This document shows positions 1 to 23,837 of a stretch of DNA of 64,000 bases, in pieces. Below the pieces are notes generated by a model that was not told the DNA's origin, made no database searches, and was given only the letters and a program-made list of their open reading frames with translations. Source of the DNA: Escherichia phage saus132; the sequence record NC_047884.1, one strand, 5' to 3'. The translations under genes were made by a program, and so were the position numbers. Every line of letters begins with the position of its first letter. Within the stretch, counting starts at the first letter, position 1.

Positions 1-8
1 TTTAATTG

Positions 9-743
9 TTAGGCAACTTTTAATTTATCAATGAATTGTTGCGGAGTGGTACTATATTCCGCGCGTTCTTCCTCGGTCATACCTTCCCAACACATTTTTA
101 AACGTTCGGCTAGGAATTGATAATCGTTATCATCATCAAGCGATTCATCAATAAAGGTTTCACCGATCAATGTTACGCCGATTGATAGGATATCATTAAC
201 GGCTTGAGCGTCCAGCGTTTTAAATCCAGCACTTGCCGCCGCCGATAATACACCTTTATGATCATCAATCATTGTAAAATCAGCGTTAGGATATAGCTGT
301 TTAAACAGTTCAAAGTAATAAGATTTATATACAGCGTCTTTGCTGTGATATATTTCGCTAACCTTATTTGCATCAAAGTATTTATGTAATGTATCGCGGG
401 AAAATACGCGAATATTACTATTTCCGCGCCCTCGCAAGCCTTGTTTACGCAAATAAAAGTAATCGCTTTTAGACATTAAGCGAGCGGTACAAATAATATT
501 TAAAGTATTTGCATCATTCATGCACTGGCGCATATATTCAACCAACGGCAATAAAGAATCCTGCATAATTAAATCATGTTTACAGGCTTCGCGGAAATAC
601 TTATTTAAATCTAAATTCCCGTTATCATCAAAGCAAGGCGCTACACGGTGGAAAGAATTAATGATAGTTCCGTCTAAGTCCCAAATCATAACGCGGGAAA
701 TATGCGGGAAAGTGCGGGTAATATTCATATTGACTTGATTCAT
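9..743 (-). CDS. dmp: 5'-deoxyribonucleotidase, HAD-family phosphatase (T5 Dmp-like)
   Basis: 244-aa ORF; HAD motif I DLDGT near N-terminus; first gene of the pre-early block. Confidence 0.75.
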   Translation of the reverse strand: MNQVNMNITRTFPHISRVMIWDLDGTIINSFHRVAPCFDDNGNLDLNKYFREACKHDLIMQDSLLPLVEYMRQCMNDANTLNIICTARLMSKSDYFYLRKQGLRGRGNSNIRVFSRDTLHKYFDANKVSEIYHSKDAVYKSYYFELFKQLYPNADFTMIDDHKGVLSAAASAGFKTLDAQAVNDILSIGVTLIGETFIDESLDDDNDYQFLAERLKMCWEGMTEEERAEYSTTPQQFIDKLKVA

Positions 744-830
744 TTGTTACATTCTCCATTTAAGGGATTTAGGTTAATTCAATCTTGCCAGCTAATTATA
801 TTAGATTAGCTGGCAATGTTCAATTAACTA

Positions 831-1223
831 TTAATTAGTGAGGCCATACGCTAGCGCGTCACCGATAAAGGAAAGATCTTCACCATGTACGCTAGAACGG
901 ATACCCGCGCAAGTGTAAACCATCGCGCTAGCTTCTGGATTGCAGACCGGACACGGCTTAACAACTGCAAACGCTAGACCGGATTTAAGCGCATCAATAA
1001 TAATTGTTTGCACTGTCAAAGTATCAGCGTAAACTCCTTTTGCTTTTGTATGGCTTGCCACTTTGCCGGTATCATAAGCAAAGGTAGTAACCTGCAAAGC
1101 GTCGTTATAATTCAGCAAATCGAAATTAACTTGCCCCGCCTCGACGTGATAACGTTCGCCATTAGAATAAACTAGAACGATGGAAGAAGTAGCACGATCA
1201 AAAGGAATGTTTTGGTTTTTCAT
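831..1223 (-). CDS. hypothetical pre-early protein
   Basis: 130-aa ORF co-directional with dmp and A1; no recognisable motif. Confidence 0.5.
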   Translation of the reverse strand: MKNQNIPFDRATSSIVLVYSNGERYHVEAGQVNFDLLNYNDALQVTTFAYDTGKVASHTKAKGVYADTLTVQTIIIDALKSGLAFAVVKPCPVCNPEASAMVYTCAGIRSSVHGEDLSFIGDALAYGLTN

Positions 1224-1255
1224 GTTTATGACTCCAGATTATTTAATTACGGGAT

Positions 1256-1534
1256 TTATTGAAAAAATACATTTAAAGATAAATCAGTTTTACGAAAATA
1301 TGTTTCGTCGCCGTCTTTCCTTTCTTGATTAAGGTAATCGCCTGTCATTACCTGAATAGAATCTTTTCCGAAAAAGATCATATTTTCGCCAATATTACTA
1401 TCCCATACGGCATACATTCCCGCGTACATTCCACGGGTAACTAAATAAACGCAACTATCAAAAGACATTTCAGACCATGCAATATCTTCTAAACAATTGC
1501 TATCAGGGATAGATATATTAATTTTACTAGCCAT
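1256..1534 (-). CDS. hypothetical pre-early protein
   Basis: 92-aa ORF, tight spacing in same operon. Confidence 0.45.
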   Translation of the reverse strand: MASKINISIPDSNCLEDIAWSEMSFDSCVYLVTRGMYAGMYAVWDSNIGENMIFFGKDSIQVMTGDYLNQERKDGDETYFRKTDLSLNVFFQ

Positions 1535-1586
1535 TTAATAAACCTTTTATTAATGGCGGTATATTTCAACCGCCGATTAAATTTAA

Positions 1587-3251
1587 TTATGCAAAGAATT
1601 TTCCATTCTTAAAGTCAATCAAAGTACGCTGCCCGTTTGCGTATGTAATTAAATGGGTTTGCGTCCAGCTACTAGCGCCAACGTTGTAACCCATATCGAG
1701 ACTACCAGCAACGCCAGCGGTATAAACGCCGCCATAAATACTAGCCGTGTGAGTGTGGCCAGTATTGAGGCGTCCCAACTTTTTGAACTGTTTTGGATTG
1801 CCCCGACTGCCATTAATGCCGTTGTGACCATGAACACCGCATTCAATTCCTGCAATCTTGAAAGATTGGTCAGTGGTTAGGAAAATGGCGTTAAATTCGC
1901 AACCTGCAACGTTTCTAAGCGCGTAATCCAATACGTTAAAGGTATCATCTTGTTTTGCAATAGCTGCATAAATCGCGGCGTTTAGGCTGTGATACAGTTC
2001 GGCGTTTGCGGGGTCGTCTTTAATGTTAGCGTTGCGATCATCAAGCCAACGGGATAACGCCAAATCATGATTGGATTCCACGATGATTGTTTGAGAAAAA
2101 TCGCGCTCCATTGACTCCAACACGCGACCGGTATCAATGAGATCGTCAATAACTTTGTCACGTCCGGCGGCGTACTGTTTAGCTAGGAATACACCAGAGG
2201 CACGATTATGATGATTGCGGGATGTAAAATCGTGTACGTCATGGATAAACTGATATTTCGGTTTAAGAATATCAAGCAAGCTATTTTCGCCCACCCATGA
2301 TGCAACGGCGCAATCATCATCTAATTTTTCGGCGTGAATATCGCCATATTGCAAGCCTAAAACATGATCAGATGTTTTGAAACATCCGGTGGGCACAGCG
2401 CAAACGTTCAAATCGTAGAACATCCCGCTTTCGTCCATAGTTTCAAGCTGGCGAACAAAAAATTCTCCGTCGTCGTCAAATTCTACCAGTAAAGCACCGA
2501 AATTATGCAGCGCCTCGGCCTTTTGTCCTGCCTTTTGCTGAATATAGTTTTTAAGTGTAGCCGTTCCGGTGGAGTACATACGGCGCACTACTTCACCTTT
2601 TAACGCTGGCACACTTTCAGCGGTAATTTTTGCGTGACCAATTGCCAGACCTTCGATGTTTAAAGCCGTTGCAGTTTCTGCGAATCCAGAAAGCGGATAA
2701 TCTGCCGTTGGTAATACATTAATTTCAGCCATGAAAGCAAAACGGCGATTATTCAAAAACACGTTTTTCTCACAAATATATTTATCAAATGCGGGATCAT
2801 ATTTGATTTTTTCGCCGCCTTCCCCGTTCTGAAATCCGTTTTTGTTGTAAATGAATTTGCTAACAAGTAATTCAGCGCCGTAATAACTAGCGTACTGCTC
2901 AAGCGCTTTCAAAAAGTTTTTATGCGGGAAAGTATTGTTTTGAATCGACGTTAGAATAAAACGGCGACCGGATTTAACTTCCCACTGTTCAACGGTGCTA
3001 GAAACAATCCCCGCCGCTTCTGGGCGATCATCGTTTTTAATGGCTTTTACTGCCTTCGCTGCCTTCGGTTTCGCTGGCTTATTTGCTTCCAACCAGTCAC
3101 AAATTGCCGTTGAATGTTTCGGCGTATCATAAACAGCTTTTGAAATATCGTCGCAAACTTCCAATTTAGTAGCGCGTAAACGCTTACCGTAGAAGTTAAA
3201 ATCTGCGGCCATTTTCAAAATTTGAGCTTGTTTTTCTGCGGAAATATTCAT
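1587..3251 (-). CDS. A1: A1-like pre-early protein with metallophosphatase-type motifs (putative nuclease/phosphoesterase)
   Basis: 554-aa ORF; GDIHAE, VHGHNG and GHTHTAS motifs resemble calcineurin-like phosphoesterase signatures; size and position fit T5 A1. Confidence 0.7.
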   Translation of the reverse strand: MNISAEKQAQILKMAADFNFYGKRLRATKLEVCDDISKAVYDTPKHSTAICDWLEANKPAKPKAAKAVKAIKNDDRPEAAGIVSSTVEQWEVKSGRRFILTSIQNNTFPHKNFLKALEQYASYYGAELLVSKFIYNKNGFQNGEGGEKIKYDPAFDKYICEKNVFLNNRRFAFMAEINVLPTADYPLSGFAETATALNIEGLAIGHAKITAESVPALKGEVVRRMYSTGTATLKNYIQQKAGQKAEALHNFGALLVEFDDDGEFFVRQLETMDESGMFYDLNVCAVPTGCFKTSDHVLGLQYGDIHAEKLDDDCAVASWVGENSLLDILKPKYQFIHDVHDFTSRNHHNRASGVFLAKQYAAGRDKVIDDLIDTGRVLESMERDFSQTIIVESNHDLALSRWLDDRNANIKDDPANAELYHSLNAAIYAAIAKQDDTFNVLDYALRNVAGCEFNAIFLTTDQSFKIAGIECGVHGHNGINGSRGNPKQFKKLGRLNTGHTHTASIYGGVYTAGVAGSLDMGYNVGASSWTQTHLITYANGQRTLIDFKNGKFFA

Positions 3252-3359
3252 AACTAAATCAACTCCTATAAAGGGATAAATATTAATACTGGCAATATTG
3301 CCAAATATAACGCCTTACCTGAAGTGAGGACAATTTAAAAGGCGTTATAATTTGCAATA

Positions 3360-3605
3360 TTATTCTAGAATTGGCATAAGACTAGAACTAAAACCGCAAC
3401 TAATAGCCAGCGTTAAAAATATAATCGCCAGATATTTTTGTTTATTAGCTTGACGTTTAAACATATCAGCGGCATAAGCTGAATTAATGCCGATAATAGA
3501 AATTATATATTTGCCGTAATTAAATATAAATATAGCGGCAACTATAAATAAACCTAAAATAAACGCTTCACTAGGGAAGAAGATCATTTTAATAACTCCG
3601 GTCAA
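3360..3605 (-). CDS. small membrane protein
   Basis: 81 aa with two hydrophobic segments. Confidence 0.45.
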   Translation of the reverse strand: MTGVIKMIFFPSEAFILGLFIVAAIFIFNYGKYIISIIGINSAYAADMFKRQANKQKYLAIIFLTLAISCGFSSSLMPILE

Positions 3606-3645
3606 AGGGAAATTATAGCGGGGAATAATCCCCGCTAATTAAAAT

Positions 3646-4062
3646 TTATTCACCTGCGGCCTGTTTTACTTCCTCCGCTACGCCTAACAATTGCGCTACG
3701 GCTTCCAGCGTTTCCAGTTTTGCACTTTCCAGACTTGCCAGATCATCAGCGTCTTTGATAACGCCAGCATCAATGGCATGTTTAGCCATAACGCGCACAT
3801 AGTGAGCTTTACGGACACTAGACCCGCCGCCAACTTTACGCGGTTTATCACTTTTCTGGTACGCTTTTGCGCTTGTCAGTTTAGAACGTACAGAAACAGG
3901 GCTTGCAGCGCCAACGGCGGCGGCAATTTCTTTCAGGCCGTCACTGTTAGCAAATTCAATTCCGCTTTTAGCGACCATTTCAGAATACATAGAAACAGCC
4001 TTTTCGGTGTTTTCTTCGTTCCAAGAGAATTTTGCGGTTTTTTCGGTTTTAACGTTAGACAT
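3646..4062 (-). CDS. A2: A2-like pre-early protein (putative DNA-binding)
   Basis: 138-aa ORF immediately upstream of A1 in transcription order, as in T5; Ala-rich. Confidence 0.5.
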   Translation of the reverse strand: MSNVKTEKTAKFSWNEENTEKAVSMYSEMVAKSGIEFANSDGLKEIAAAVGAASPVSVRSKLTSAKAYQKSDKPRKVGGGSSVRKAHYVRVMAKHAIDAGVIKDADDLASLESAKLETLEAVAQLLGVAEEVKQAAGE

Positions 4063-4348
4063 AATTTAATACTCCATTCAATTATTAATTAAGGGATTAT
4101 GATTAACTAAATGTTAATCGCTATATATTCTATTAGCTAGAATATATAACGGAAACATTTTATTTTTATTTCCAGTTTCAAGCGGTTTATTAATTCCCGA
4201 ATATATTTATATTCTCACCTTATCCGGCTTGCCAGAGAATTAATAAGGCAACATTGTATTTATACGCTGTTTATTATTCCGTTCACGCTAGGAATATTTC
4301 GAGTTATCTTTATTGCCTAACTAAGCATGATATGTAAGGCGCATTAAT

Positions 4349-4600
4349 TTATGCGATAGCTTGCCATTTATCATCTTTCTGAATGATTTTTACAACGTCG
4401 CCAGATTTAACACGGACGTTATAAATAGGCTTGCCGTGGTTACTGCGTTCCGTTTCCGCATAGACCGCTTCAATCTTATCAAAGGGATCAAGCGCCGCAC
4501 CTTTAATACGTTCGGCTTTTCCGGTTAATTCATCCGTTTTAGTTACAAAAGGAATGAATACAGATTGACCTACTTTCGGCGCGGTAATAACGTTTTGCAT
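4349..4600 (-). CDS. hypothetical protein
   Basis: 83-aa ORF in pre-early block. Confidence 0.45.
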   Translation of the reverse strand: MQNVITAPKVGQSVFIPFVTKTDELTGKAERIKGAALDPFDKIEAVYAETERSNHGKPIYNVRVKSGDVVKIIQKDDKWQAIA

Positions 4601-4764
4601 TTTTAATACTCCGGTTTATTGGGGATTATTCCACAATAGCGCCTCGATACTTTGAAACGCTATTAGATTATAATCCGCTAGGAGTTAGCCTAAACATTAC
4701 CGTTATCCAAATTGTTAAAGAGCAGTTACTACGGGGAACATCTTAAAACCTATCGGCTAGCGTG

Positions 4765-4974
4765 TCAAGCGTTTTTTAAACTTTTTTCGATTTGATGTGA
4801 GTTATATAAATCAATCATTATATTACGCCACACCATTTCCAGACCTTGCTGCTTACCTTTCTTGTATTGCTTGAATCTGTATTTTACAGATCTTTGCGCT
4901 ACTGTCAACAAATTTTTTGTTCTGCTATCAAGTGACTTGATAGGCTTGCCAGTGATCAAAAGCGTTTGTTTCAT
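4765..4974 (-). CDS. hypothetical basic protein
   Basis: 69-aa ORF. Confidence 0.4.
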   Translation of the reverse strand: MKQTLLITGKPIKSLDSRTKNLLTVAQRSVKYRFKQYKKGKQQGLEMVWRNIMIDLYNSHQIEKSLKNA

Positions 4975-5129
4975 TTGAGATCCTCCAAAGCATATAAACC
5001 ATCCCCATCATTGCAGATTATTACCGCTTCCGAATGATTAGCATAGTATTCATTTGCAGTCTTTACCCATTGTTCGATTTTTTCGATAGTGTCGTGGGTA
5101 GCTGGATGATCGTTAAATATTATTGTCAT
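4971..5129 (-). CDS. hypothetical small protein (52 aa)
   Basis: ATG ORF whose TGA overlaps the ATG of the downstream gene (ATGA); below the track size cutoff. Confidence 0.3.
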   Translation of the reverse strand: MTIIFNDHPATHDTIEKIEQWVKTANEYYANHSEAVIICNDGDGLYALEDLK

Positions 5130-5504
5130 ATCGTCGATTCCTTATAATGTATAAGTTTACCGCCGATAGGCTTTAAGATGTTCCCTAGTTTTTAAAGAGC
5201 ATGGCGGTAAACTTCCCCGCCGTGTAGTTCGTCATTGCCGCCCTACGTGATAAATATTAGGGGAATACCGAAAAGGGCGCAACCATATTTTTGTAAAGAA
5301 ACGTAAAGACAAACGCCACCGCACCACGTCCAGCGGCGCACTAAATTTAATGAAACGGGCGCGCGAATAACACCAAAACAACCATTTTAGCAAGTAATTT
5401 TTTCATTTATATCTGCTCTAGGGTACTTGACAAAATCTAAAATCCTCGTGGTGAGGTTTTCTCGGTGTGCCCCTTATGGTTGCCTATCTTTTCCTTTGAG
5501 GCGC

Positions 5505-5531
5505 TTAGAATGCGTTACAGAGCGTTTTAGA
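5505..5531. repeat. 27-bp perfect direct repeat, copy 1 (TTAGAATGCGTTACAGAGCGTTTTAGA)
   Basis: identical 27-mer recurs at 8081-8107 in the same orientation. Confidence 0.8.
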
Positions 5532-5854
5532 CCCTGTTAATAACTTATACAAAAAGCAAAAATGAAATTTAATGAGTTATCCACTTGATTTTTCAAAAAA
5601 GTATTTTCTGCTATTATTTTTCATTGACAAATAAGTTTAGACGTGCATTGATTGGTTAGCAGACTAACAATCGCTAGGATGATAATCACGCTGGTGGATT
5701 GTAACAGCTGAAACAGTTAGCAGACTATTAATACTCTAAAAACCTATTAGCCAACTAACTATTTCATATTATATAATATACTTATAAATTAAAGAGAAAT
5801 AATAACTATAAGAAACTATCGGCTAAGTGAGAACCACTATCATTTAGGTTATTC

Positions 5855-5960
5855 ACAAAGTTATCCACAGCACAAAATAACTTGACGCAATAGGCGACGT
5901 TTTGGCGACTTATCCACAGACTTATATACAGGTTATCCTACTGTATAAATATACAGGGTA
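5855..5960. promoter_or_regulatory. left arm of ~105-bp inverted repeat carrying two DnaA boxes and a LexA-type box
   Basis: TTATCCACA at 5861-5869 and 5910-5918; TACTGTATAAATATACAGGG at 5939-5958 (CTGT-N8-ACAG); reverse complement of 8135-8250 is about 75-90 percent identical. Confidence 0.6.
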
Positions 5961-6095
5961 GAATGGTAGCAGTAACAACCGCAATCAAATTTAAGCGGCC
6001 TAGAACACGCTATACGGCGTTTTCTCACTGCTACCCTTATTATAATAAAGCCTTGTGTACGCTTACAGAGAACTAGAAATAGAAAACGCGCGGCA

Positions 6096-6209
6096 ATGGA
6101 AGCGGCAATGTTGGAAATGGTACAAAGTTTCAATATTGCTGAAATGATCGATGAAATGGTAAAAGGTATTGACATTTCAACCTTTACCCAAAATGCTGAA
6201 AGCGAGTAA
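6096..6209 (+). CDS. hypothetical small protein (37 aa)
   Basis: ATG ORF followed by hairpin plus T-run; below the track size cutoff. Confidence 0.3.
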   Translation: MEAAMLEMVQSFNIAEMIDEMVKGIDISTFTQNAESE

Positions 6210-6237
6210 TAATTAGTCTAATGTAAAGTTTTGTAAA

Positions 6238-6263
6238 GGTCGCCCTAATCGGCGGCCTTTTTT
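6238..6263 (+). terminator. putative intrinsic terminator
   Basis: GGTCGCC-CTAATC-GGCGGCC hairpin followed by TTTTTT. Confidence 0.5.
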
Positions 6264-6271
6264 GTTATAAT
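6263..6271 (+). promoter_or_regulatory. extended -10 promoter element (TGTTATAAT)
   Basis: TGnTATAAT about 58 nt upstream of the 6329 ATG; -35 weak. Confidence 0.35.
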
Positions 6272-6328
6272 GCCTTTACACCGAAACGGTGGATTGAAAA
6301 TTTTCCCCTGATTTCTAGGAGGCGTTAA

Positions 6329-6556
6329 ATGGTACATTCATCATCTTCTGCAATTTTTAACGGTATGGAATGGGTATCCGTTCCCGCTATTGTCAGCGTT
6401 ATGGTTTCTGAGTTCGGCATAGGTAAAACTTATGTTACCATTCAGGGGCTTTACGACAATGACAAGATTGACCAGCAAACCGCCGGATTTTTGCTGGATG
6501 AATTGAAAGCTAACCATTGCACTAAAAAGCAAGCGGCAAAAATTGTTTTAATGTAA
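6329..6556 (+). CDS. hypothetical protein
   Basis: 75-aa ORF; AGGAGG RBS upstream of ATG; first gene of an opposite-strand cassette. Confidence 0.55.
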   Translation: MVHSSSSAIFNGMEWVSVPAIVSVMVSEFGIGKTYVTIQGLYDNDKIDQQTAGFLLDELKANHCTKKQAAKIVLM

Positions 6557-6602
6557 TTATTAAAGGGGATATATTATCCCCTAATTTCTAGGAGCTAATA
6601 AA

Positions 6603-6752
6603 ATGGTTATTTTTCGATCTATTCTGGCTAGTATCTTGGGCGCTATTTTATCGTTGTTTGCAATAGCTTTCGGTGTTCATGCCGTTATTATCGGAGCAGG
6701 TATCGCGGGGTTTTCTTACTTGTTAGGCTGTATGACTGGTAAAGGGGAATAA
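6603..6752 (+). CDS. small membrane protein (49 aa)
   Basis: AGGAG RBS; hydrophobic; stop 2 nt before next ATG. Confidence 0.4.
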   Translation: MVIFRSILASILGAILSLFAIAFGVHAVIIGAGIAGFSYLLGCMTGKGE

Positions 6753-6754
6753 AA

Positions 6755-6967
6755 ATGTTAAAGAATGTTTCCCTTGCCCGTTCCAAAGGTTTTAAGCTGG
6801 TGGATGTTAACACGTTCGAGCGTCCAGATTGTAAAATTGAATATGTAGCACGCAACAAAAACGCTTTCCGTGTCACTGAAAAGAAATTTGACAAGCGCGG
6901 CAATTTGGTAGCCGAAACGGTTAAACACTTTGCCACTTTTTACGCTGCATTTCGTGGGGTATTATGA
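6755..6967 (+). CDS. hypothetical protein
   Basis: 70-aa ORF in plus-strand cassette. Confidence 0.5.
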   Translation: MLKNVSLARSKGFKLVDVNTFERPDCKIEYVARNKNAFRVTEKKFDKRGNLVAETVKHFATFYAAFRGVL

Positions 6968-7104
6968 AAACTTTATTTTCTATTTTGCTCGGTGCTGCTG
7001 GTGGCTTTATTGCTACCTGCTTTAAAAGTGATCCTGCACTGTTAGGCGTTTATTCGATTTGTTTTGGCTATTTGCTAGGGAGGCTGGCAGATGGTTATTT
7101 ATGA
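6964..7104 (+). CDS. small membrane protein (46 aa)
   Basis: ATGA overlap with upstream stop; hydrophobic. Confidence 0.35.
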   Translation: MKTLFSILLGAAGGFIATCFKSDPALLGVYSICFGYLLGRLADGYL

Positions 7105-7435
7105 GGGCAATCGCTTTGTTACTAATTGCCGTCCGGCATTATTAGCAAACTATTTAAACCAGCTTTCACCAGTTTATAAAGGCGTAATTAATATCTATGA
7201 GGGCAAAGCACATTATAAGATTAATGCCATTGTTGCCCGTGAACTAGCGTTTCAATTTTTAACTTTTGGATCTTGTGACGTTCAGGTTATGGGGGAAGCG
7301 TTAATAGCAGAAAATGAAAATGAATTTATCGACATTTTCCGCAAAGTATGTACAGAGCGCCTGATTATGAAAGGCGCGTATATTCAATCAACCGCTGAAA
7401 GTATAGAAACAGCGTTTCGAAAGGTGGCGCAATGA
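7091..7435 (+). CDS. hypothetical protein
   Basis: 114-aa ORF. Confidence 0.5.
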   Translation: MVIYEGNRFVTNCRPALLANYLNQLSPVYKGVINIYEGKAHYKINAIVARELAFQFLTFGSCDVQVMGEALIAENENEFIDIFRKVCTERLIMKGAYIQSTAESIETAFRKVAQ

Positions 7436-7629
7436 CTAAAGATGAAGCACTAGAAAAAATGAAACAAGGTTTCAAAGTTCGTCAAGAATACTTCACTAGT
7501 GAGGAATTTTTGTACATGAAAAATGGCGTGATCATGTCAGAAGATGGATATACTTTTAATGACTGGTTTTTCAAGATTACCCCTGCTACACGTTGGAAGC
7601 TAGACGGTTGGAGCGTCTACCGTGAATAG
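7432..7629 (+). CDS. hypothetical protein
   Basis: 65-aa ORF, ATGA overlap with upstream gene. Confidence 0.5.
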   Translation: MTKDEALEKMKQGFKVRQEYFTSEEFLYMKNGVIMSEDGYTFNDWFFKITPATRWKLDGWSVYRE

Positions 7630-7752
7630 CTGGTGGCGAAAAACACAAAGCCATAAATCTAATAATACCGCTGGGAAACATTCCCAGCGTTTACGATTTA
7701 GTAGCGGGCTTGTAATGGTAATAATAATCATTCTCATTCTAGGAGCGATGGC

Positions 7753-7992
7753 ATGGCTGTAAGAATTTTACGATATGTGGAACGTAAAGAAACCGATATT
7801 ATGCAACATCATTTAACTGATGCGCAATACGCGCAATTTTTAGAAATGCAGAAAAGCGGAGCTGATACGGCAACGCTAGGAGCGTGGATCAACTCAGTTT
7901 CAACGTGTACGCATTTTGATTCATACGGGTATACGCCAGCCGAAACCGTCCAGATCTTTGATGACTACGAGAAAGAATACATAGCAGACTAA
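7753..7992 (+). CDS. hypothetical protein
   Basis: 79-aa ORF; GGAG RBS. Confidence 0.5.
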   Translation: MAVRILRYVERKETDIMQHHLTDAQYAQFLEMQKSGADTATLGAWINSVSTCTHFDSYGYTPAETVQIFDDYEKEYIAD

Positions 7993-8080
7993 TAATAACG
8001 GGGCGCAACTATCGGCCCCGCTTTTTCTGGCCTTCCTCAAATTTCCCCTTATTAAAATACCTCCTCCAAAAATAAACGCG

Positions 8081-8107
8081 TTAGAATGCGTTACAGAGCG
8101 TTTTAGA
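8081..8107. repeat. 27-bp perfect direct repeat, copy 2
   Basis: identical to 5505-5531. Confidence 0.8.
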
Positions 8108-8134
8108 GCTATATTAGAGTTATTCACTACGCAG

Positions 8135-8250
8135 GAATACTGTATAAATATACAGTAGAATAACCTGTTGATAAGTCTGTGGATAACGCCTCAAAATCGC
8201 TAGGATTTTGTCAAGTCAAATCGTGCTGTTAATAAACCGGTGGATAACTT
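8135..8250. promoter_or_regulatory. right arm of inverted repeat with LexA-type box and DnaA boxes (inverted)
   Basis: TACTGTATAAATATACAGTA at 8137-8156; TGTGGATAA at 8178-8186; GTGGATAA at 8240-8247. Confidence 0.6.
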
Positions 8251-8279
8251 AAATAACAGTGTTTCTCACTTCGCTTTGT

Positions 8280-8424
8280 AAATGCGAGTCACTCTCATTA
8301 TCATTCGCGTTTCCCTTCCTAAATGCAAATCATTCTCATTCGTATTCCGGTAGTCAAATGATAACTATTCTCATTCGCATTCAACTTCTCAAATGCGAAT
8401 CAATCTCATTATCATTTGCATTTC
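8280..8424. repeat. four tandem ~35-bp imperfectly palindromic direct repeats (AAATGCGA..TCTCATT..TCATTCGC-like)
   Basis: units beginning near 8280, 8321, 8356 and 8391. Confidence 0.7.
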
Positions 8425-8459
8425 GGCAGGCAGGGCATTTTCTATTTGCCCTGCGCTTT

Positions 8460-9061
8460 TGTGCAAATCCGACATTTGCCCCCACGGATTACGTGCCAGC
8501 GTGCATGTGCGAATCCGACAATTTTTGGTAGTGTGCAAATCCGATGGCAAATATTTTTTATATGTGCGAATCCGACAATGAATTTTCCTAAAAACTCCAG
8601 CAATCCGCAACTGCGATGCAATCCAGCTGGGTTTACTAGAGTATGTGCAAATTCGACAAGTGTTAAGGTGTGCGAATCCGACAAGATTTTTGTGACTTCG
8701 ATGAGAGGGTGTGTGATTGTGTGGGTTTGGGGAGAAGTGCGAATCCGATGAGATTTTGGGAGGAACTACGGAAGGAGCAGCGGTGATGGTGCTTTAGCAC
8801 CGGTTTGCTGCATTTTTGGGGATAATGCGGGATGTTTTGGATAGAATTGAGATTATGGGAGATAAAGCGAAATTTTATTAGCAAAATGGGGCAAAATAGC
8901 TTGACAGGTGAAAATTCCTGTGGCTCTAAAAACTCAGGCAAATATGGGCCTTCGGCCCGAAATAATGCTGCTATTTTCAGTGTTCCTAAAAACTTTGGAG
9001 ACTCCTATCAATGTGCAAATCCGACCATAAATTTCTAGAAACATAATGTGCAAATCCGACA
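8460..9061. repeat. array of nine same-orientation 15-bp repeats, consensus TGTGCRAATCCGAY
   Basis: copies at about 8460, 8506, 8532, 8563, 8644, 8669, 8737, 9012 and 9047; irregular spacing; no credible ORF. Confidence 0.75.
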
Positions 9062-9547
9062 GTAATTTCCAGACTGACAAGAGTCAATTATTTTTCCTAG
9101 AAATAACCGCCTCCCTATAACCGCCCTGTATAGGAAACCGCCCTAGGATATGTAACGTTGGAGAGAAACTGCCTTAGAATGCGTGAGTTTTCCTAGAAAC
9201 TTAGGAGTCTACTAGAAAGTGGTGTGCCATCCTAGCAGATGAGCGGCAACCGGTGTATCATCTTGAACACAAATATTGCCTTTAAATATTATAAGGTAAA
9301 TAAAAGTTAATATACCCCCATTTCATGAGAGTTAGTCCCTCTAGGCGCGTGCGATTTGATACATCCTCCTGAGTCTCGGGGAGGAAGAACAATTGACGAG
9401 AACCTGCAAGCAGAACCGTCATCAAGTATTTTCCTACGAGGAATGATGTAAATCTACGGCCTAGAGGTAAAAACAAGTTGATGTTTTTAATCTATGAGAT
9501 TATTATAACATGCAGCTCAAATAATGTCAAGAAGATTTTGCTAACGT

Positions 9548-10273
9548 TTATAGATCGTGATTGACTTTGAGTATGACTCCCCTCGATGCCATGAAAAGGA
9601 ATGTTGCTAGGTAAGATGACTCGGAATTTAGCGCAGAATAATCTACACTTCCTCTAGGTCTAGTTTCTTGTTTAGTGTCAAGAATTGTTTCGATATCAAA
9701 CTTAACAGATCTTGCAACTTTTCTAGCTTGTTCAGGATCACGTAAGATTTCAAAGTGAGCAGCATCTAGAATATGGTTAGATGATGTTGATTCGTCAACT
9801 ATACTTAGATGAACCTGCGCAAGTGTAGATACGATTCCTAGCTTTAATTCAGATAGAGAAGAATATGGTGGTTCTACTTTCTTTGTAAGTCTAGGGAGAT
9901 GATCGTATTTACATTGCTTTTGAGGAATCATCAGAATATTAGGATAACATTCTAAACATGACTTTGCATTTCCTTCTTTAAAATGCGGGAGTTCTTTATC
10001 TGCAAAGACGTGGAATGAATCTGCTGAAAATCCTTTAATAGTAGGATCAACAGCTTGAATCAGACGACGTAAACTAATATATGAAGGAGCTAATGTGACT
10101 TCTTCTGCATCTTTATTATATTTAGGTTGCCCACTAGCATTAATATATGCTGGATAAAACTCTGCACAAAATGCTACTGCATGAGCTTCTAACTCATTAA
10201 GTTCGGAAACATTCTTTCCATTACAAGCTCTAGCTAACTTAATAATCTCTGCTAAATTCTTTTTTATACTCAT
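9548..10273 (-). CDS. hypothetical protein
   Basis: 241-aa ORF, first gene after the repeat region. Confidence 0.55.
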   Translation of the reverse strand: MSIKKNLAEIIKLARACNGKNVSELNELEAHAVAFCAEFYPAYINASGQPKYNKDAEEVTLAPSYISLRRLIQAVDPTIKGFSADSFHVFADKELPHFKEGNAKSCLECYPNILMIPQKQCKYDHLPRLTKKVEPPYSSLSELKLGIVSTLAQVHLSIVDESTSSNHILDAAHFEILRDPEQARKVARSVKFDIETILDTKQETRPRGSVDYSALNSESSYLATFLFMASRGVILKVNHDL

Positions 10274-23084: not shown

Positions 23085-23837
23085 TTATCCAACTAGTGGT
23101 TCTAGCTCTAAGTCACAGAAGTGGTACACATCGGTACGAAGTGCATCAAGTCCGTTGAAGGTATTCTCAAATTTATGAGAAATGTATTTTTCAGGAATAC
23201 CGCTTTCAGACGGATGATCTGTCTCGATGCGATACTTATTAGTAATACCAGATTCAACCTTAATAAGTATGGAATCCATATCTAGAGTATTGGATTCCAT
23301 GATTAGCTCTCCCTCATTTGGAAAACGCACATCGGTAACGATTGCGACGTCTGGGTCGTCTTTATCGATGGATTGCTCCAGAATTATGAGCCAAATGCGT
23401 TCATGCACCAGCTGCCTTCCTAACTCAGTACCTACAAGCTGTAGCATTTTTCTTGGGGAGATAAATACGCTATACAGCGCATCATCAGCTTGCCCAATTA
23501 ACTGCTGAGGATCAAGGTATTTTCCTTCAAAAATAGGCCAAACGTACGAGAAGTCCTCAAACTTATCGATACCATACTTAAACCATACGTCTCTAGCTCG
23601 CTCCAGCTGAGATTGTGTGACCGTAAACCATTGGTCAATCTCCTTTCCCCTGCGCTCTCCCAGAAACTCTGGAGTTACCCCGAGGATTACGGATGCAAGT
23701 TCGTAAACGGGTTTAGCAAAACTGTAACGACGGGATAAACACGTTGGGAACGTGTCATTACACCAGTCAATCATTAATTCTGCAACGGTATCTTTTCCCG
23801 CACCAGCCTCACCATGTAAACCGACTAATACTGACAT
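23085..23837 (-). CDS. dnk: deoxynucleoside monophosphate kinase
   Basis: 250 aa; Walker A GEAGAGKDT near N-terminus. Confidence 0.55.
   Translation of the reverse strand: MSVLVGLHGEAGAGKDTVAELMIDWCNDTFPTCLSRRYSFAKPVYELASVILGVTPEFLGERRGKEIDQWFTVTQSQLERARDVWFKYGIDKFEDFSYVWPIFEGKYLDPQQLIGQADDALYSVFISPRKMLQLVGTELGRQLVHERIWLIILEQSIDKDDPDVAIVTDVRFPNEGELIMESNTLDMDSILIKVESGITNKYRIETDHPSESGIPEKYISHKFENTFNGLDALRTDVYHFCDLELEPLVG

What the first reader, a model, noticed from the sequence alone, without database searches (positions are those of the whole stretch)
8280..9061. Two arrays of short direct repeats in an ORF-free stretch after the pre-early block
Four ~35-bp imperfect palindromic units (8280-8424) are followed by nine same-orientation copies of TGTGCRAATCCGAY (8460-9061) at irregular spacing. 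The only ORFs here are repeat-generated. The position, just after the pre-early genes of a T5-like genome, fits an injection-stop or protein-binding array, but the bound factor is not evident from sequence.
Basis: partly seen in the sequence, partly recalled or inferred. Interest (0 to 1): 0.7.

Follow-up and report, generated by a model that had tools for sequence, protein, structure and literature searches.

The report
Known T5 injection-stop repeat region
The two repeat arrays are real, but they are the long-described non-coding "injection stop signal" region at the right end of the terminal repeat of T5-like phages; its existence is known and only its mechanism remains open.

Summary
The window is the first 64 kb of T5-like phage chee130_1 (MF431736.1, 100% identity). 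The finding is T5 "Repeat Region 3". [quoted passage not shown] They list direct repeat C copies 1-4 with palindromes E-I, palindrome J, the 7.9% nick, and direct repeat D copies 1-9. Both arrays are confirmed.

- Array 1 is four DRC units at 8276-8424.
- Array 2 is nine same-strand TGTGCRAATCCGAY copies at 8460-9060.
- No ORF in the stretch is conserved, and there is no Rfam or tRNA hit.

Davison (2020) already compared this region across 25 T5-like phages, including chee130_1.

My additions:
- DRC copy number varies from about 2 to 9 between relatives.
- The DRD module has fixed geometry. It starts 4 bp after the conserved nick motif, and cluster 1 is 223 bp in all ten genomes aligned.
- The nick-to-repeat-end distance is 470 +/- 1 bp in nine phages.
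- The physical end of the terminal repeat falls between the two DRD clusters. In the window this is about 8926, not the annotated 8717.
- A Vibrio phage keeps the DRD core.

The function is still unproven. I read array 1 as part of the pause/restart control and array 2 as a docking array for DNA maturation or transfer. Novelty: already known.

The parts
7997..8025 (+). GC-rich hairpin plus T run that ends the rightward pre-early operon. It is homologous to T5 palindrome C / putative terminator.
   Evidence: Sequence. T5 features 9194-9213 map to 7997-8022.
8138..8157 (.). Palindrome D, TACTGTATAAATATACAGTA. It resembles a LexA (SOS) box. It lies outside the finding but in the same region.
   Evidence: Mapping. 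A second exact copy of the 16-mer lies at 5941. The identical 16-mer is present in Vibrio phage Chester.
8165..8248 (-). Two paired DnaA-box modules (T5 DRB1/DRB2 inside IRD'-spacer-IRC'), for example TGTGGATAA at 8178.
   Evidence: The module 8138-8270 is exactly 133 bp with no indels in 10 phages and about 93% identical.
8276..8424 (+). Array 1: four DRC units (T5 direct repeat C copies 1-4, palindromes E-I). The T5 shear-mapped end of first-step DNA (T5 position 9618) falls in unit 4, at about window 8398.
   Evidence: Unit number varies from about 2 (Sw2) to about 9 (DT571/2) among relatives.
8430..8454 (.). Palindrome J, a GC-rich hairpin (-9.3 kcal/mol, z = -3.7).
8449..8456 (-). CCCTGCGC, the motif of the T5 major single-strand interruption at 7.9%. 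The nick is in the - strand, just right of 8456.
   Evidence: T5 annotations; mapping. CCTGCGC lies 3-5 bp before the first DRD in T5-, Klebsiella-, Serratia-, Proteus- and Vibrio-type phages. Four PhageTerm 'repeat ends' fall exactly here.
8460..8749 (+). Array 2, cluster 1: DRD copies at 8460, 8506, 8532, 8563, 8644, 8669 (T5 DRD1-6) and 8736. The 8736 copy has no T5 counterpart but is present in Seabear and Sepoy.
   Evidence: The span 8460-8682 is 223 bp in all 10 aligned phages. Motif columns are 93% identical against 79% for the spacers.
8880..8978 (.). Conserved 99-bp block that contains the T5-type physical end of the terminal repeat (...CTGTGGCTC | TAAAAACTC..., 8926|8927) and the hairpin GGGCCTTCGGCCC (8946-8958).
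   Evidence: The block is 92-99% identical with no indels in 10 phages. The deposited repeat end lies at this homologous position in T5, BF23, Sw2, Sepoy, SIY1lw, EscoHU1, Elw and phiR201.
9012..9060 (+). Array 2, cluster 2: DRD copies at 9012 and 9047 (T5 DRD7 and DRD8). They lie outside the terminal repeat, and 9012 is 86 bp from the repeat end.
9502..9530 (-). Perfect sigma-70 promoter consensus (TTGACA-17-TGtTATAAT) pointing left, towards DRD8/DRD7 and the repeat end. It is not part of the finding, but it would transcribe through cluster 2.
   Evidence: The hexamers are kept with divergent spacers in 9 of 14 phages, including Klebsiella and Proteus phages.

Best explanation
Identity (near certain): this is 'Repeat Region 3' of T5-like phages. 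It is the untranslated, cis-acting block at the right end of the long terminal repeat that T5 records annotate as the injection stop signal. Array 1 is direct repeat C with its palindromes. Array 2 is direct repeat D.

Mechanism (inferred, not shown): both arrays are sets of binding sites for sequence-specific DNA-binding proteins. They are not genes or RNAs. I think they belong to two different devices.

(1) Array 1, together with the LexA-like palindrome and the paired DnaA boxes on its left, lies where first-step DNA ends. It is the likelier part of the pause/restart control. It behaves as a dosage-tolerant, lineage-specific array. That fits a co-evolving phage protein such as the essential dimeric DNA-binding protein A2.

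(2) Array 2 is a one-directional, bipartite array of fixed geometry. It begins 4 bp after the conserved minus-strand nick site and brackets the physical end of the terminal repeat. It most likely docks a conserved phage protein that positions DNA-processing events. The candidates are a small terminase subunit of family phrog_3802 or a nickase partner. On this reading the complex cuts the right genome end between the two clusters, in the way terminase small subunits use repeated sites on both sides of a cut.
For: Identity:
- 100% match to MF431736.1.
- One-to-one mapping of the annotated T5 features DRC1-4, palJ, nick 1 and DRD1-8 onto window coordinates, with identical DRD spacing 46/26/31/81/25 ... 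343-344/35.
- chee130_1 is named in Davison's comparative set.

Non-coding binding-site arrays:
- The ORFs are broken in relatives, and there is no RNA family or tRNA.
- Motif columns are more conserved than spacers, 0.93 against 0.79.
- All nine copies share one orientation.

Two devices:
- The DRC region varies from 137 to 269 bp within the ten aligned genomes and from about 2 to 9 units across all phages examined.
- DRC is replaced by unrelated repeats in Serratia phage Kamaji and by a 16-bp tandem repeat in Vibrio phage Chester.
- In contrast, DRD cluster 1 is exactly 223 bp and the terminus block exactly 99 bp in 10 phages.
- The nick-to-repeat-end distance is 469-471 bp in nine phages.
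- The DRD core GTGCAAATCC persists in Vibrio phages whose A1 protein is only about 33% identical.

Link to the genome end:
- Eight records from different laboratories place the repeat end at the same site, 86 bp before DRD7 (120 bp in phiR201). Three of these were called by PhageTerm.
- A look-alike block (TTGACA...TGTGGCTC|) sits in the gap between DRD clusters in Klebsiella and Serratia phages.
- A small terminase candidate exists and is 44% identical between chee130_1 and Chester.
- Terminase small subunits binding repeated sites that flank the cut (SPP1 pacL/pacR, lambda cosB) is established knowledge, not tested here.
Against: - No binding, packaging or transfer experiment exists for either array. 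Papers to 2026 give them no role.
- The left genome end shows no DRD copies, so DRD cannot be a general end signal.
- The other major nick positions have no DRD next to them.
- Proteus phage Stubb keeps A1, A2, the nick motif and a long repeat, yet has only one degenerate DRD copy. An array is therefore not indispensable.
- In the Chester record the deposited repeat boundary lies left of all DRD-like copies, not between clusters.
- Eight of the nine copies lie within about 660 bp of the shear-mapped stop. The classical reading, that DRD is part of the stop or restart, is therefore not excluded.
Confidence: 0.4

Rival explanations
1. Classical reading. The whole block, DRD included, is the injection stop/restart signal. 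As the DNA enters left end first, the same-orientation 14-mers are met in series by a membrane-associated factor. That factor would be A2 or A1-A2 for restart, or a host or virion protein for the stop. It holds or pulls the DNA.
For: - The T5 record labels the homologous 1 kb as iss.
- The shear-mapped first-step end (T5 9618) maps to window ~8398, 62 bp before DRD1.
- The region is conserved in all phages that carry A1 and A2.
- A uniform orientation suits a process with fixed polarity.
- A2 is an essential DNA-binding protein needed only for second-step transfer.
Against: - DRD7 and DRD8 (and DRD9 in T5) lie outside the terminal repeat and well beyond the stop, yet they are as conserved as the others.
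- The module's length is locked to the nick and the genome end, which are products of DNA maturation rather than of injection.
- Stubb has no DRD array.
- The position of the stop rests only on shear mapping reported in the literature.
Confidence: 0.3
2. The DRD copies are weak DnaA boxes. The reverse complement ATTTGCACA is one step from TTWTNCACA. On this reading they extend Davison's model, in which membrane-bound DnaA holds the first-step DNA.
For: - Consensus DnaA boxes lie 210-280 bp to the left.
- Some DRD variants (TGTGCAAAACCGAC) are exact TTTTGCACA boxes in Seabear, Sepoy, Klebsiella and Serratia phages.
- The motif core is kept in phages of hosts that share the DnaA box.
Against: - The R position of the motif puts C at box position 4 in about half of the copies. 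That position is invariant T in the consensus quoted.
- The first box position is A, not T.
- The best-conserved part, CCGAY, lies outside the 9-mer.
- Spacing of 25-81 bp does not resemble DnaA oligomer arrays. That comparison rests on established knowledge and was not tested here.
Confidence: 0.07
3. The region is an iteron-type replication or maintenance element. DnaA boxes plus clusters of one-directional direct repeats would be bound by a phage initiator, as in P1 oriR/incA or RK2 oriV.
For: The region has paired DnaA boxes, two clusters of same-orientation repeats, and AT-rich stretches after most copies. Klebsiella phages have a regular 27-bp series.
Against: - There is no initiator gene next to the arrays.
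- Spacing in the T5 group is irregular.
- The literature places T5 origins near the genome centre, and replication genes are absent from first-step DNA.
Confidence: 0.06
4. Array 1 is a set of Fur-like operators. The core TGAGAATnATTCTCA is 12 of 14 identical to the Fur 7-1-7 box TGATAATnATTATCA. Host Fur would then coat the end of the first-step DNA.
For: - T5 and poul124 have sites one mismatch from the 15-mer. The window has sites at 2-3 mismatches.
- The DRC block holds six sites with at most 4 mismatches, a count reached by none of 2000 shuffles.
- T5 uses the Fur-regulated receptor FhuA (established knowledge).
Against: - The resemblance was recalled from memory and then checked only against a consensus string.
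- Sites of equal quality occur elsewhere in the window, at 118, 7716 and 49220.
- Serratia and Vibrio relatives replace the array with unrelated repeats, although their hosts are expected to have the same Fur box.
- BtuB-using relatives keep DRC.
Confidence: 0.05
5. The repeats have no function. They would be slippage or recombination debris in a non-coding gap, or unrecognised small genes.
For: Many deposited genomes call small hypothetical ORFs here. DRC copy number drifts.
Against: - The ORFs are not conserved.
- DRD sequence, orientation and spacing are kept across genera while the neighbouring genes are replaced.
- Paired DRD copies (two 14-mers 10-40 bp apart) occur only in T5-like genomes among 2.9 million viral contigs, and in two stray contigs among 185,579 species genomes.
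Confidence: 0.02

Closest known systems
Phage T5 'Repeat Region 3' / injection stop signal (iss). Described by Heusterspreute et al. 1987 (Gene 52:155). Annotated in GenBank AY587007 (Wang et al. 2005) and AY543070. Compared across phages by Davison 2020 (bioRxiv 10.1101/866236).
   Same: It has the same position, the same order of elements (palC, palD, DnaA-box pairs, DRC x4, palJ, nick, DRD series), the same 14-mer, and the same DRD1-6 and DRD7-8 spacing. chee130_1 itself is in Davison's data set.
   Different: The differences are minor. There is an extra degenerate copy at 8736. T5's DRD9 is missing. The DRC units have diverged in sequence, and palJ has a longer loop.
Terminase recognition sites with repeated small-subunit binding sites on both sides of the cut (SPP1 pacL-pacC-pacR; lambda cosQ-cosN-cosB).
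   Same: Clusters of short repeats flank the site where the mature genome end is made, and a small-terminase family is encoded by the phage.
   Different: This is analogy only, and no binding has been shown. The distances are larger (190-258 bp and 86 bp). The left genome end has no such repeats. T5 ends are long direct repeats rather than cohesive or headful ends.
Iteron-type origins and control loci (P1 oriR/incA, RK2 oriV).
   Same: DnaA boxes sit next to clusters of same-orientation direct repeats.
   Different: There is no adjacent initiator gene, the spacing is irregular, and published T5 origins map elsewhere.
DNA uptake signal sequences of Pasteurellaceae and Neisseria (short oriented motif plus AT-rich flank that promotes DNA transport).
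   Same: It is a short oriented motif followed by a T run, repeated where DNA transport across the envelope must restart.
   Different: The resemblance is functional only. The organisms and machinery differ, and uptake sequences are spread over whole genomes rather than clustered.

Membership tests
T5-family Repeat Region 3 / iss | A large untranslated stretch at the right end of the left terminal repeat, after the pre-early genes dmp, A1 and A2. | tested here: met
   dmp, A1 and A2 lie at 9-4062. There is no conserved ORF between 7993 and 9547.
T5-family Repeat Region 3 / iss | Palindrome D followed by IRD'-spacer-IRC', with paired DnaA or DnaA-like boxes. | tested here: met
   Window 8138-8270 aligns to T5 9330-9462 without indels. 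The length is 133 bp in 10 phages.
T5-family Repeat Region 3 / iss | Direct repeat C copies with palindromes E-I. | tested here: met
   Four units lie at 8276-8424 and map to T5 DRC1-4.
T5-family Repeat Region 3 / iss | Palindrome J and the 7.9% nick motif immediately before DRD1. | tested here: met
   palJ is at 8430-8454, CCCTGCGC at 8449-8456 and DRD1 at 8460. The nick itself cannot be seen in sequence.
T5-family Repeat Region 3 / iss | A series of about nine DRD 14-15-mers in one orientation that runs past the end of the terminal repeat. | tested here: met
   There are nine copies. DRD1-6 and DRD7-8 have T5 spacing. Two copies lie beyond the inferred repeat end at 8926.
T5-family Repeat Region 3 / iss | DNA transfer actually pauses here, and resumption needs A1 and A2. 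| not testable with these tools
   This has been shown only for T5 and BF23, according to the literature.
DnaA box (TTWTNCACA) for the DRD motif | A match to the 9-mer consensus, including the invariant T at position 4. | tested here: not met
   The reverse complement is ATT[T/C]GCACA. Position 1 is A, and position 4 is C in the G variants.
Fur box for the DRC core | A close match to GATAATGATAATCATTATC or TGATAATnATTATCA, plus retention wherever the host has Fur. | tested here: inconclusive
   The best window sites have 2-3 mismatches to the 15-mer and 5 to the 19-mer. The array is absent from Serratia and Vibrio relatives.
Terminase recognition (pac/cos-type) site | It lies at the site where the mature end is cut. 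| tested here: met
   The repeat end falls between the DRD clusters in nine records.
Terminase recognition (pac/cos-type) site | It is bound by the small terminase subunit and required for cutting and packaging. | not testable with these tools
   Only a candidate protein was identified (phrog_3802).
Iteron-type origin | An adjacent initiator gene and regularly spaced iterons next to an AT-rich unwinding element. | tested here: not met
   There is no conserved ORF nearby, and the spacing is 25-276 bp.

The most novel reading that the evidence does not exclude
The DRD module is the long-sought cis-acting site that defines the right end of the T5 terminal repeat. A maturation complex, built on the small terminase, would assemble on the two DRD clusters. 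It would make the double-strand cut at 8926 and fix the nick 470 bp away. The same nucleoprotein block, or its binding sites, would also cause the transfer pause. This would explain why the stop signal and the repeat end are always co-located.
Probability: 0.1. Interest if true: 0.7.

Novelty: already known. Interest (0 to 1): 0.3.

Why it matters
How T5 stops DNA delivery after 8% of the genome and then restarts has been open since the 1960s, and this block is the accepted location of the signal. The finding itself adds nothing to what is annotated and published.

The comparative details gathered here do sharpen the experiments:
- The first array has free copy number and is specific to each lineage.
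- The second array is a rigid module tied to the nick and to the physical genome end.

This suggests that mutating the two arrays separately, and testing A2 against small terminase for binding, would separate injection control from end formation.

A practical point also follows. Several deposited T5-like genomes place the terminal-repeat end at the nick site or elsewhere, and this record appears to be about 209 bp short.

Tried and rejected
- Small genes: rejected. All ORFs are interrupted in relatives.
- Structured RNA or tRNA: nothing found.
- DRD as a host regulatory site that also occurs as arrays in bacterial chromosomes: a two-copy pattern scan of 185,579 species genomes found only two short MAG contigs, which look like stray phage fragments. 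The 43 viral hits all come from 104-123 kb T5-like genomes.
- DRD as a partner of every nick site: rejected. Other CCTGCGC sites in the window have no DRD beside them.
- 'Tail ruler' idea, that the fixed 470 bp (about 160 nm) equals the tail-tube length, so the repeat end would sit at the portal during the pause: not supported. Klebsiella relatives have a longer tape-measure gene span (4.4-5.1 kb against 3.7 kb) but a shorter distance from the nick to the terminus-like block (about 350 bp). This test is weak because those termini are unverified.
- Similarity between the left and right genome ends: only a vague TGTGRCT resemblance, not pursued.
- CTAAAAACTC as a repeated terminus motif: not enriched in the window.
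- Pfam gave nothing for A1 or A2.
- The 2015 Davison review could not be fetched.
- The paper describing chee130_1 gives no method for the 8717-bp repeat length.

Full report
**What the window is.** Region 7990-9550 is 100% identical to MF431736.1, 'Bacteriophage T5-like chee130_1' (Epseptimavirus), and to four sister isolates. 517 phage records match by megablast. Window coordinates equal record coordinates. The record annotates dmp, A1 and A2 at 9-4062 and a 'left terminal repeat' at 1-8717.

**The observation.**
- The 14-mer TGTGCRAATCCGAY occurs nine times on the + strand between 8460 and 9060. Seven copies are exact and two have one mismatch.
- The whole 64 kb window has 14 matches at up to two mismatches, against 1.1 expected. 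None of 100 shuffles reached 14.
- The first array consists of four related units between 8276 and 8424.
- The units are direct repeats built from hexamer-phased CATT. Units 1 and 4 are clear palindromes, units 2 and 3 are weak, and units 3 and 4 together form a long inverted repeat. The block folds far better than shuffles, with z = -6.3.
- ORFs in the stretch carry stop codons in most relatives, while the flanking genes remain open at 28-50% identity.
- No Rfam family and no tRNA was found.

**What it is.**
- T5 record AY587007 annotates palindrome C, palindrome D, inverted repeats D' and C', direct repeat B, direct repeat C copies 1-4 with palindromes E-I, palindrome J, 'major single-stranded nick 1, 7.9%', and direct repeat D copies 1-9.
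- T5 record AY543070 labels 9140-10149 'injection stop signal (iss)'.
- A pairwise alignment maps these features one-to-one onto the window: DRC1-4 to 8276-8417, palJ to 8430-8454, the nick motif CCCTGCGC to 8449-8456, DRD1-6 to 8460...8669 and DRD7-8 to 9012 and 9047.
- The copy at 8736 has no T5 counterpart, and T5's DRD9 is missing here.
- Davison's 2020 preprint describes this 'Repeat Region 3' in 25 T5-like phages, names chee130_1 among them, and states that no role can be given to the repeats.
- Papers from 2023 and 2026 still treat the stop signal as a non-coding, repeat-rich region of unknown mechanism.

The finding is therefore a rediscovery of a known, annotated feature.

- In T5, Seabear, Sepoy, poul124, Elw and Seafire the DRD copies have the same orientation and the same spacing (46, 26, 31, 81, 25, then 343-344 to DRD7 and 35 to DRD8). 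EscoHU1 lacks one copy. BF23, phiR201 and DT571/2 vary slightly.
- In an alignment of ten genomes the motif columns are 93% identical to the window, against 79% for the spacers within cluster 1.
- Several segment lengths are fixed in all ten. The DnaA-box module is 133 bp, DRD cluster 1 is 223 bp, the block 8880-8978 is 99 bp, and 8683-8879 is 196-198 bp.
- By contrast the DRC region ranges from 137 to 269 bp, and the sequence right of 9061 is full of indels.
- DRC units number about 2 in Sw2 and about 9 in DT571/2.
- Klebsiella T5-like phages keep three DRC units and 9-11 DRD copies with other spacings. Serratia phage Kamaji keeps six DRD copies but has unrelated repeats in place of DRC.
- Vibrio phage Chester, whose A1 protein is about 33% identical, has the same layout. 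It has the identical 16-mer of palindrome D, paired DnaA boxes, a 16-bp tandem repeat in place of DRC, a CCTGCGC motif, and then seven or eight same-orientation (A/G)GGTGCAAATYC copies.
- Proteus phage Stubb has one DRC-like palindrome, the nick motif and a single degenerate DRD, but no array.
- Pairs of DRD copies 10-40 bp apart occur only in T5-like genomes among the viral contigs, and in two stray short contigs among 185,579 species genomes.

**Relation to the genome end.**
- Eight records end the terminal repeat at the same homologous site, ...CTGTGG(C/A)TC | (T/C)AAAAACTCAGGC. These are T5, BF23, Sw2, Sepoy, SIY1lw, EscoHU1, Elw and phiR201. BF23, Sw2 and Sepoy were called by PhageTerm.
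- That site is 86 bp before DRD7 (120 bp in phiR201) and 469-471 bp after the nick motif. Stitch is 5 bp off.
- In the window this site is 8926|8927, inside a block that is 92-99% conserved.
- The annotated 8717, like the value in the sister record poul124 from the same authors, lies about 209 bp to the left. The paper gives no method for it.
- Four other PhageTerm-based records (Seabear, Seafire, Stubb, Sugarland) end the repeat at, or 1 bp before, the end of CCTGCGC. A minus-strand nick gives the same read-start signal as a right terminus, so these are probably artefacts. They indirectly show that the nick is conserved in Klebsiella and Proteus phages.
- DRD cluster 1 therefore lies inside the repeat, cluster 2 lies just outside, and the physical end lies in the gap between them.

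**How it most likely works.**

What is shown:
- The arrays are conserved non-coding repeats.
- Array 1 lies at the position reported for the end of first-step DNA (T5 9618, about window 8398).
- Array 2 has fixed geometry relative to the nick and the end.

What is inferred:
- Both arrays are protein-binding sites.
- Array 1 differs in sequence between lineages and tolerates changes in copy number. That fits a co-evolving phage protein. A2 is the obvious candidate, because it is an essential DNA-binding protein needed for second-step transfer.
- Array 2 is bounded by two products of DNA maturation, the nick and the double-strand end. Part of it lies beyond the first-step DNA. I therefore favour a docking array for the maturation machinery, by analogy with terminase small subunits that bind repeats on both sides of the cut.
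- The phage encodes such a subunit (phrog_3802), 44% identical between chee130_1 and the Vibrio phage.
- I give this composite about 0.4. The classical view, that the DRD copies belong to the stop/restart device, gets about 0.3.

Points against my reading:
- No DRD copies lie at the left end.
- Stubb lacks the array.
- In the Chester record the deposited boundary lies left of all the copies.

**Other readings.**
- DRD as weak DnaA boxes is unlikely. The variable R falls on an invariant box position, and the conserved CCGAY tail lies outside the box.
- An iteron-type origin lacks an initiator gene and conflicts with published origin mapping.
- The DRC core resembles a Fur box at 12 of 14 positions. 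Sites of equal quality occur elsewhere in the window, and the array is replaced in Serratia and Vibrio relatives, so this is only a lead.
- The idea that the 470 bp matches the tail length is not supported by tape-measure gene lengths in Klebsiella relatives.

**Verdict.** The feature is real and strongly conserved but already known. Interest is about 0.3. The value lies in the sharper anatomy, which separates a variable array at the stop from a rigid array around the genome end.

Noticed in passing
window 8717 versus 8926; L008 (poul124): The left terminal repeat annotated in MF431736.1 (1-8717) ends about 209 bp before the site where eight other T5-like records end it (a ninth, Stitch, is 5 bp off). 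That site is ...CTGTGGCTC|TAAAAACTC, or 8926|8927 in the window. The true repeat is probably 8926 bp.
   Followed up: yes
L006 1827, L015 1466, L017 11415, L070 2639: The PhageTerm-predicted repeat ends of Seabear, Seafire, Stubb and Sugarland fall at, or 1 bp before, the end of the nick motif CCTGCGC. The minus-strand nick was probably mistaken for a terminus. This also implies that the nick is conserved in Klebsiella and Proteus phages.
   Followed up: partly
window 9502-9530, - strand: There is a perfect sigma-70 promoter (TTGACA, 17 nt, TG-TATAAT) just left of the last early gene, pointing into the non-coding region. The hexamers are kept with different spacers in 9 of 14 phages, including Klebsiella and Proteus phages. 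No conserved ORF lies downstream, so it may drive an unannotated RNA that crosses DRD8/DRD7 and ends near the hairpin at 8946-8958.
   Followed up: partly
window 5941-5956 and 8140-8155: There are two exact copies of CTGTATAAATATACAG (T5 palindrome D). It is close to the LexA SOS-box consensus CTGT-N8-ACAG. The same 16-mer is present in Vibrio phage Chester. The papers I could read do not mention LexA.
   Followed up: partly
window 9105-9146: There are three copies of AACCGCC(C/T), at 9105, 9119 and 9136, in a stretch that is 98% conserved. Similar triplets occur in T5 and in Serratia phage Kamaji. They are not among the features the T5 record annotates in this stretch.
   Followed up: no
L019 3186-4749, reverse strand (Vibrio phage Chester): Six or more tandem 16-bp units (ATGGATAGAAGTCTAG) occupy the place of the DRC array. 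The deposited repeat boundary falls inside them, about 30 bp before a CCTGCGC motif.
   Followed up: no
window 118-132 and 7716-7736: Fur-box-like 15-mers lie outside the arrays. TGATAATCGTTATCA (one mismatch) is inside dmp, and two overlapping sites with two mismatches are in a small pre-early gene.
   Followed up: no
L063 (SABI01000336.1) and L064 (RZZU01000077.1): Two short contigs binned as Spirochaetia and Clostridia MAGs carry DRD pairs. They are most likely mis-binned fragments of T5-like phages.
   Followed up: no
window 23649-23655: CCTGCGC occurs on the + strand at 19.4% of the genome, in a context like that of the 7.9% site. It is a candidate for the second major nick, which is at 18.5% in T5.
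   Followed up: no
window 8460-9075: Most DRD copies are followed 5-10 nt downstream by a T run (for example ACAATTTTTGG and ACAAGATTTTTGTG). The same is seen in Klebsiella phages, so the recognised element may be longer than 14 bp or may include a bend.
   Followed up: no
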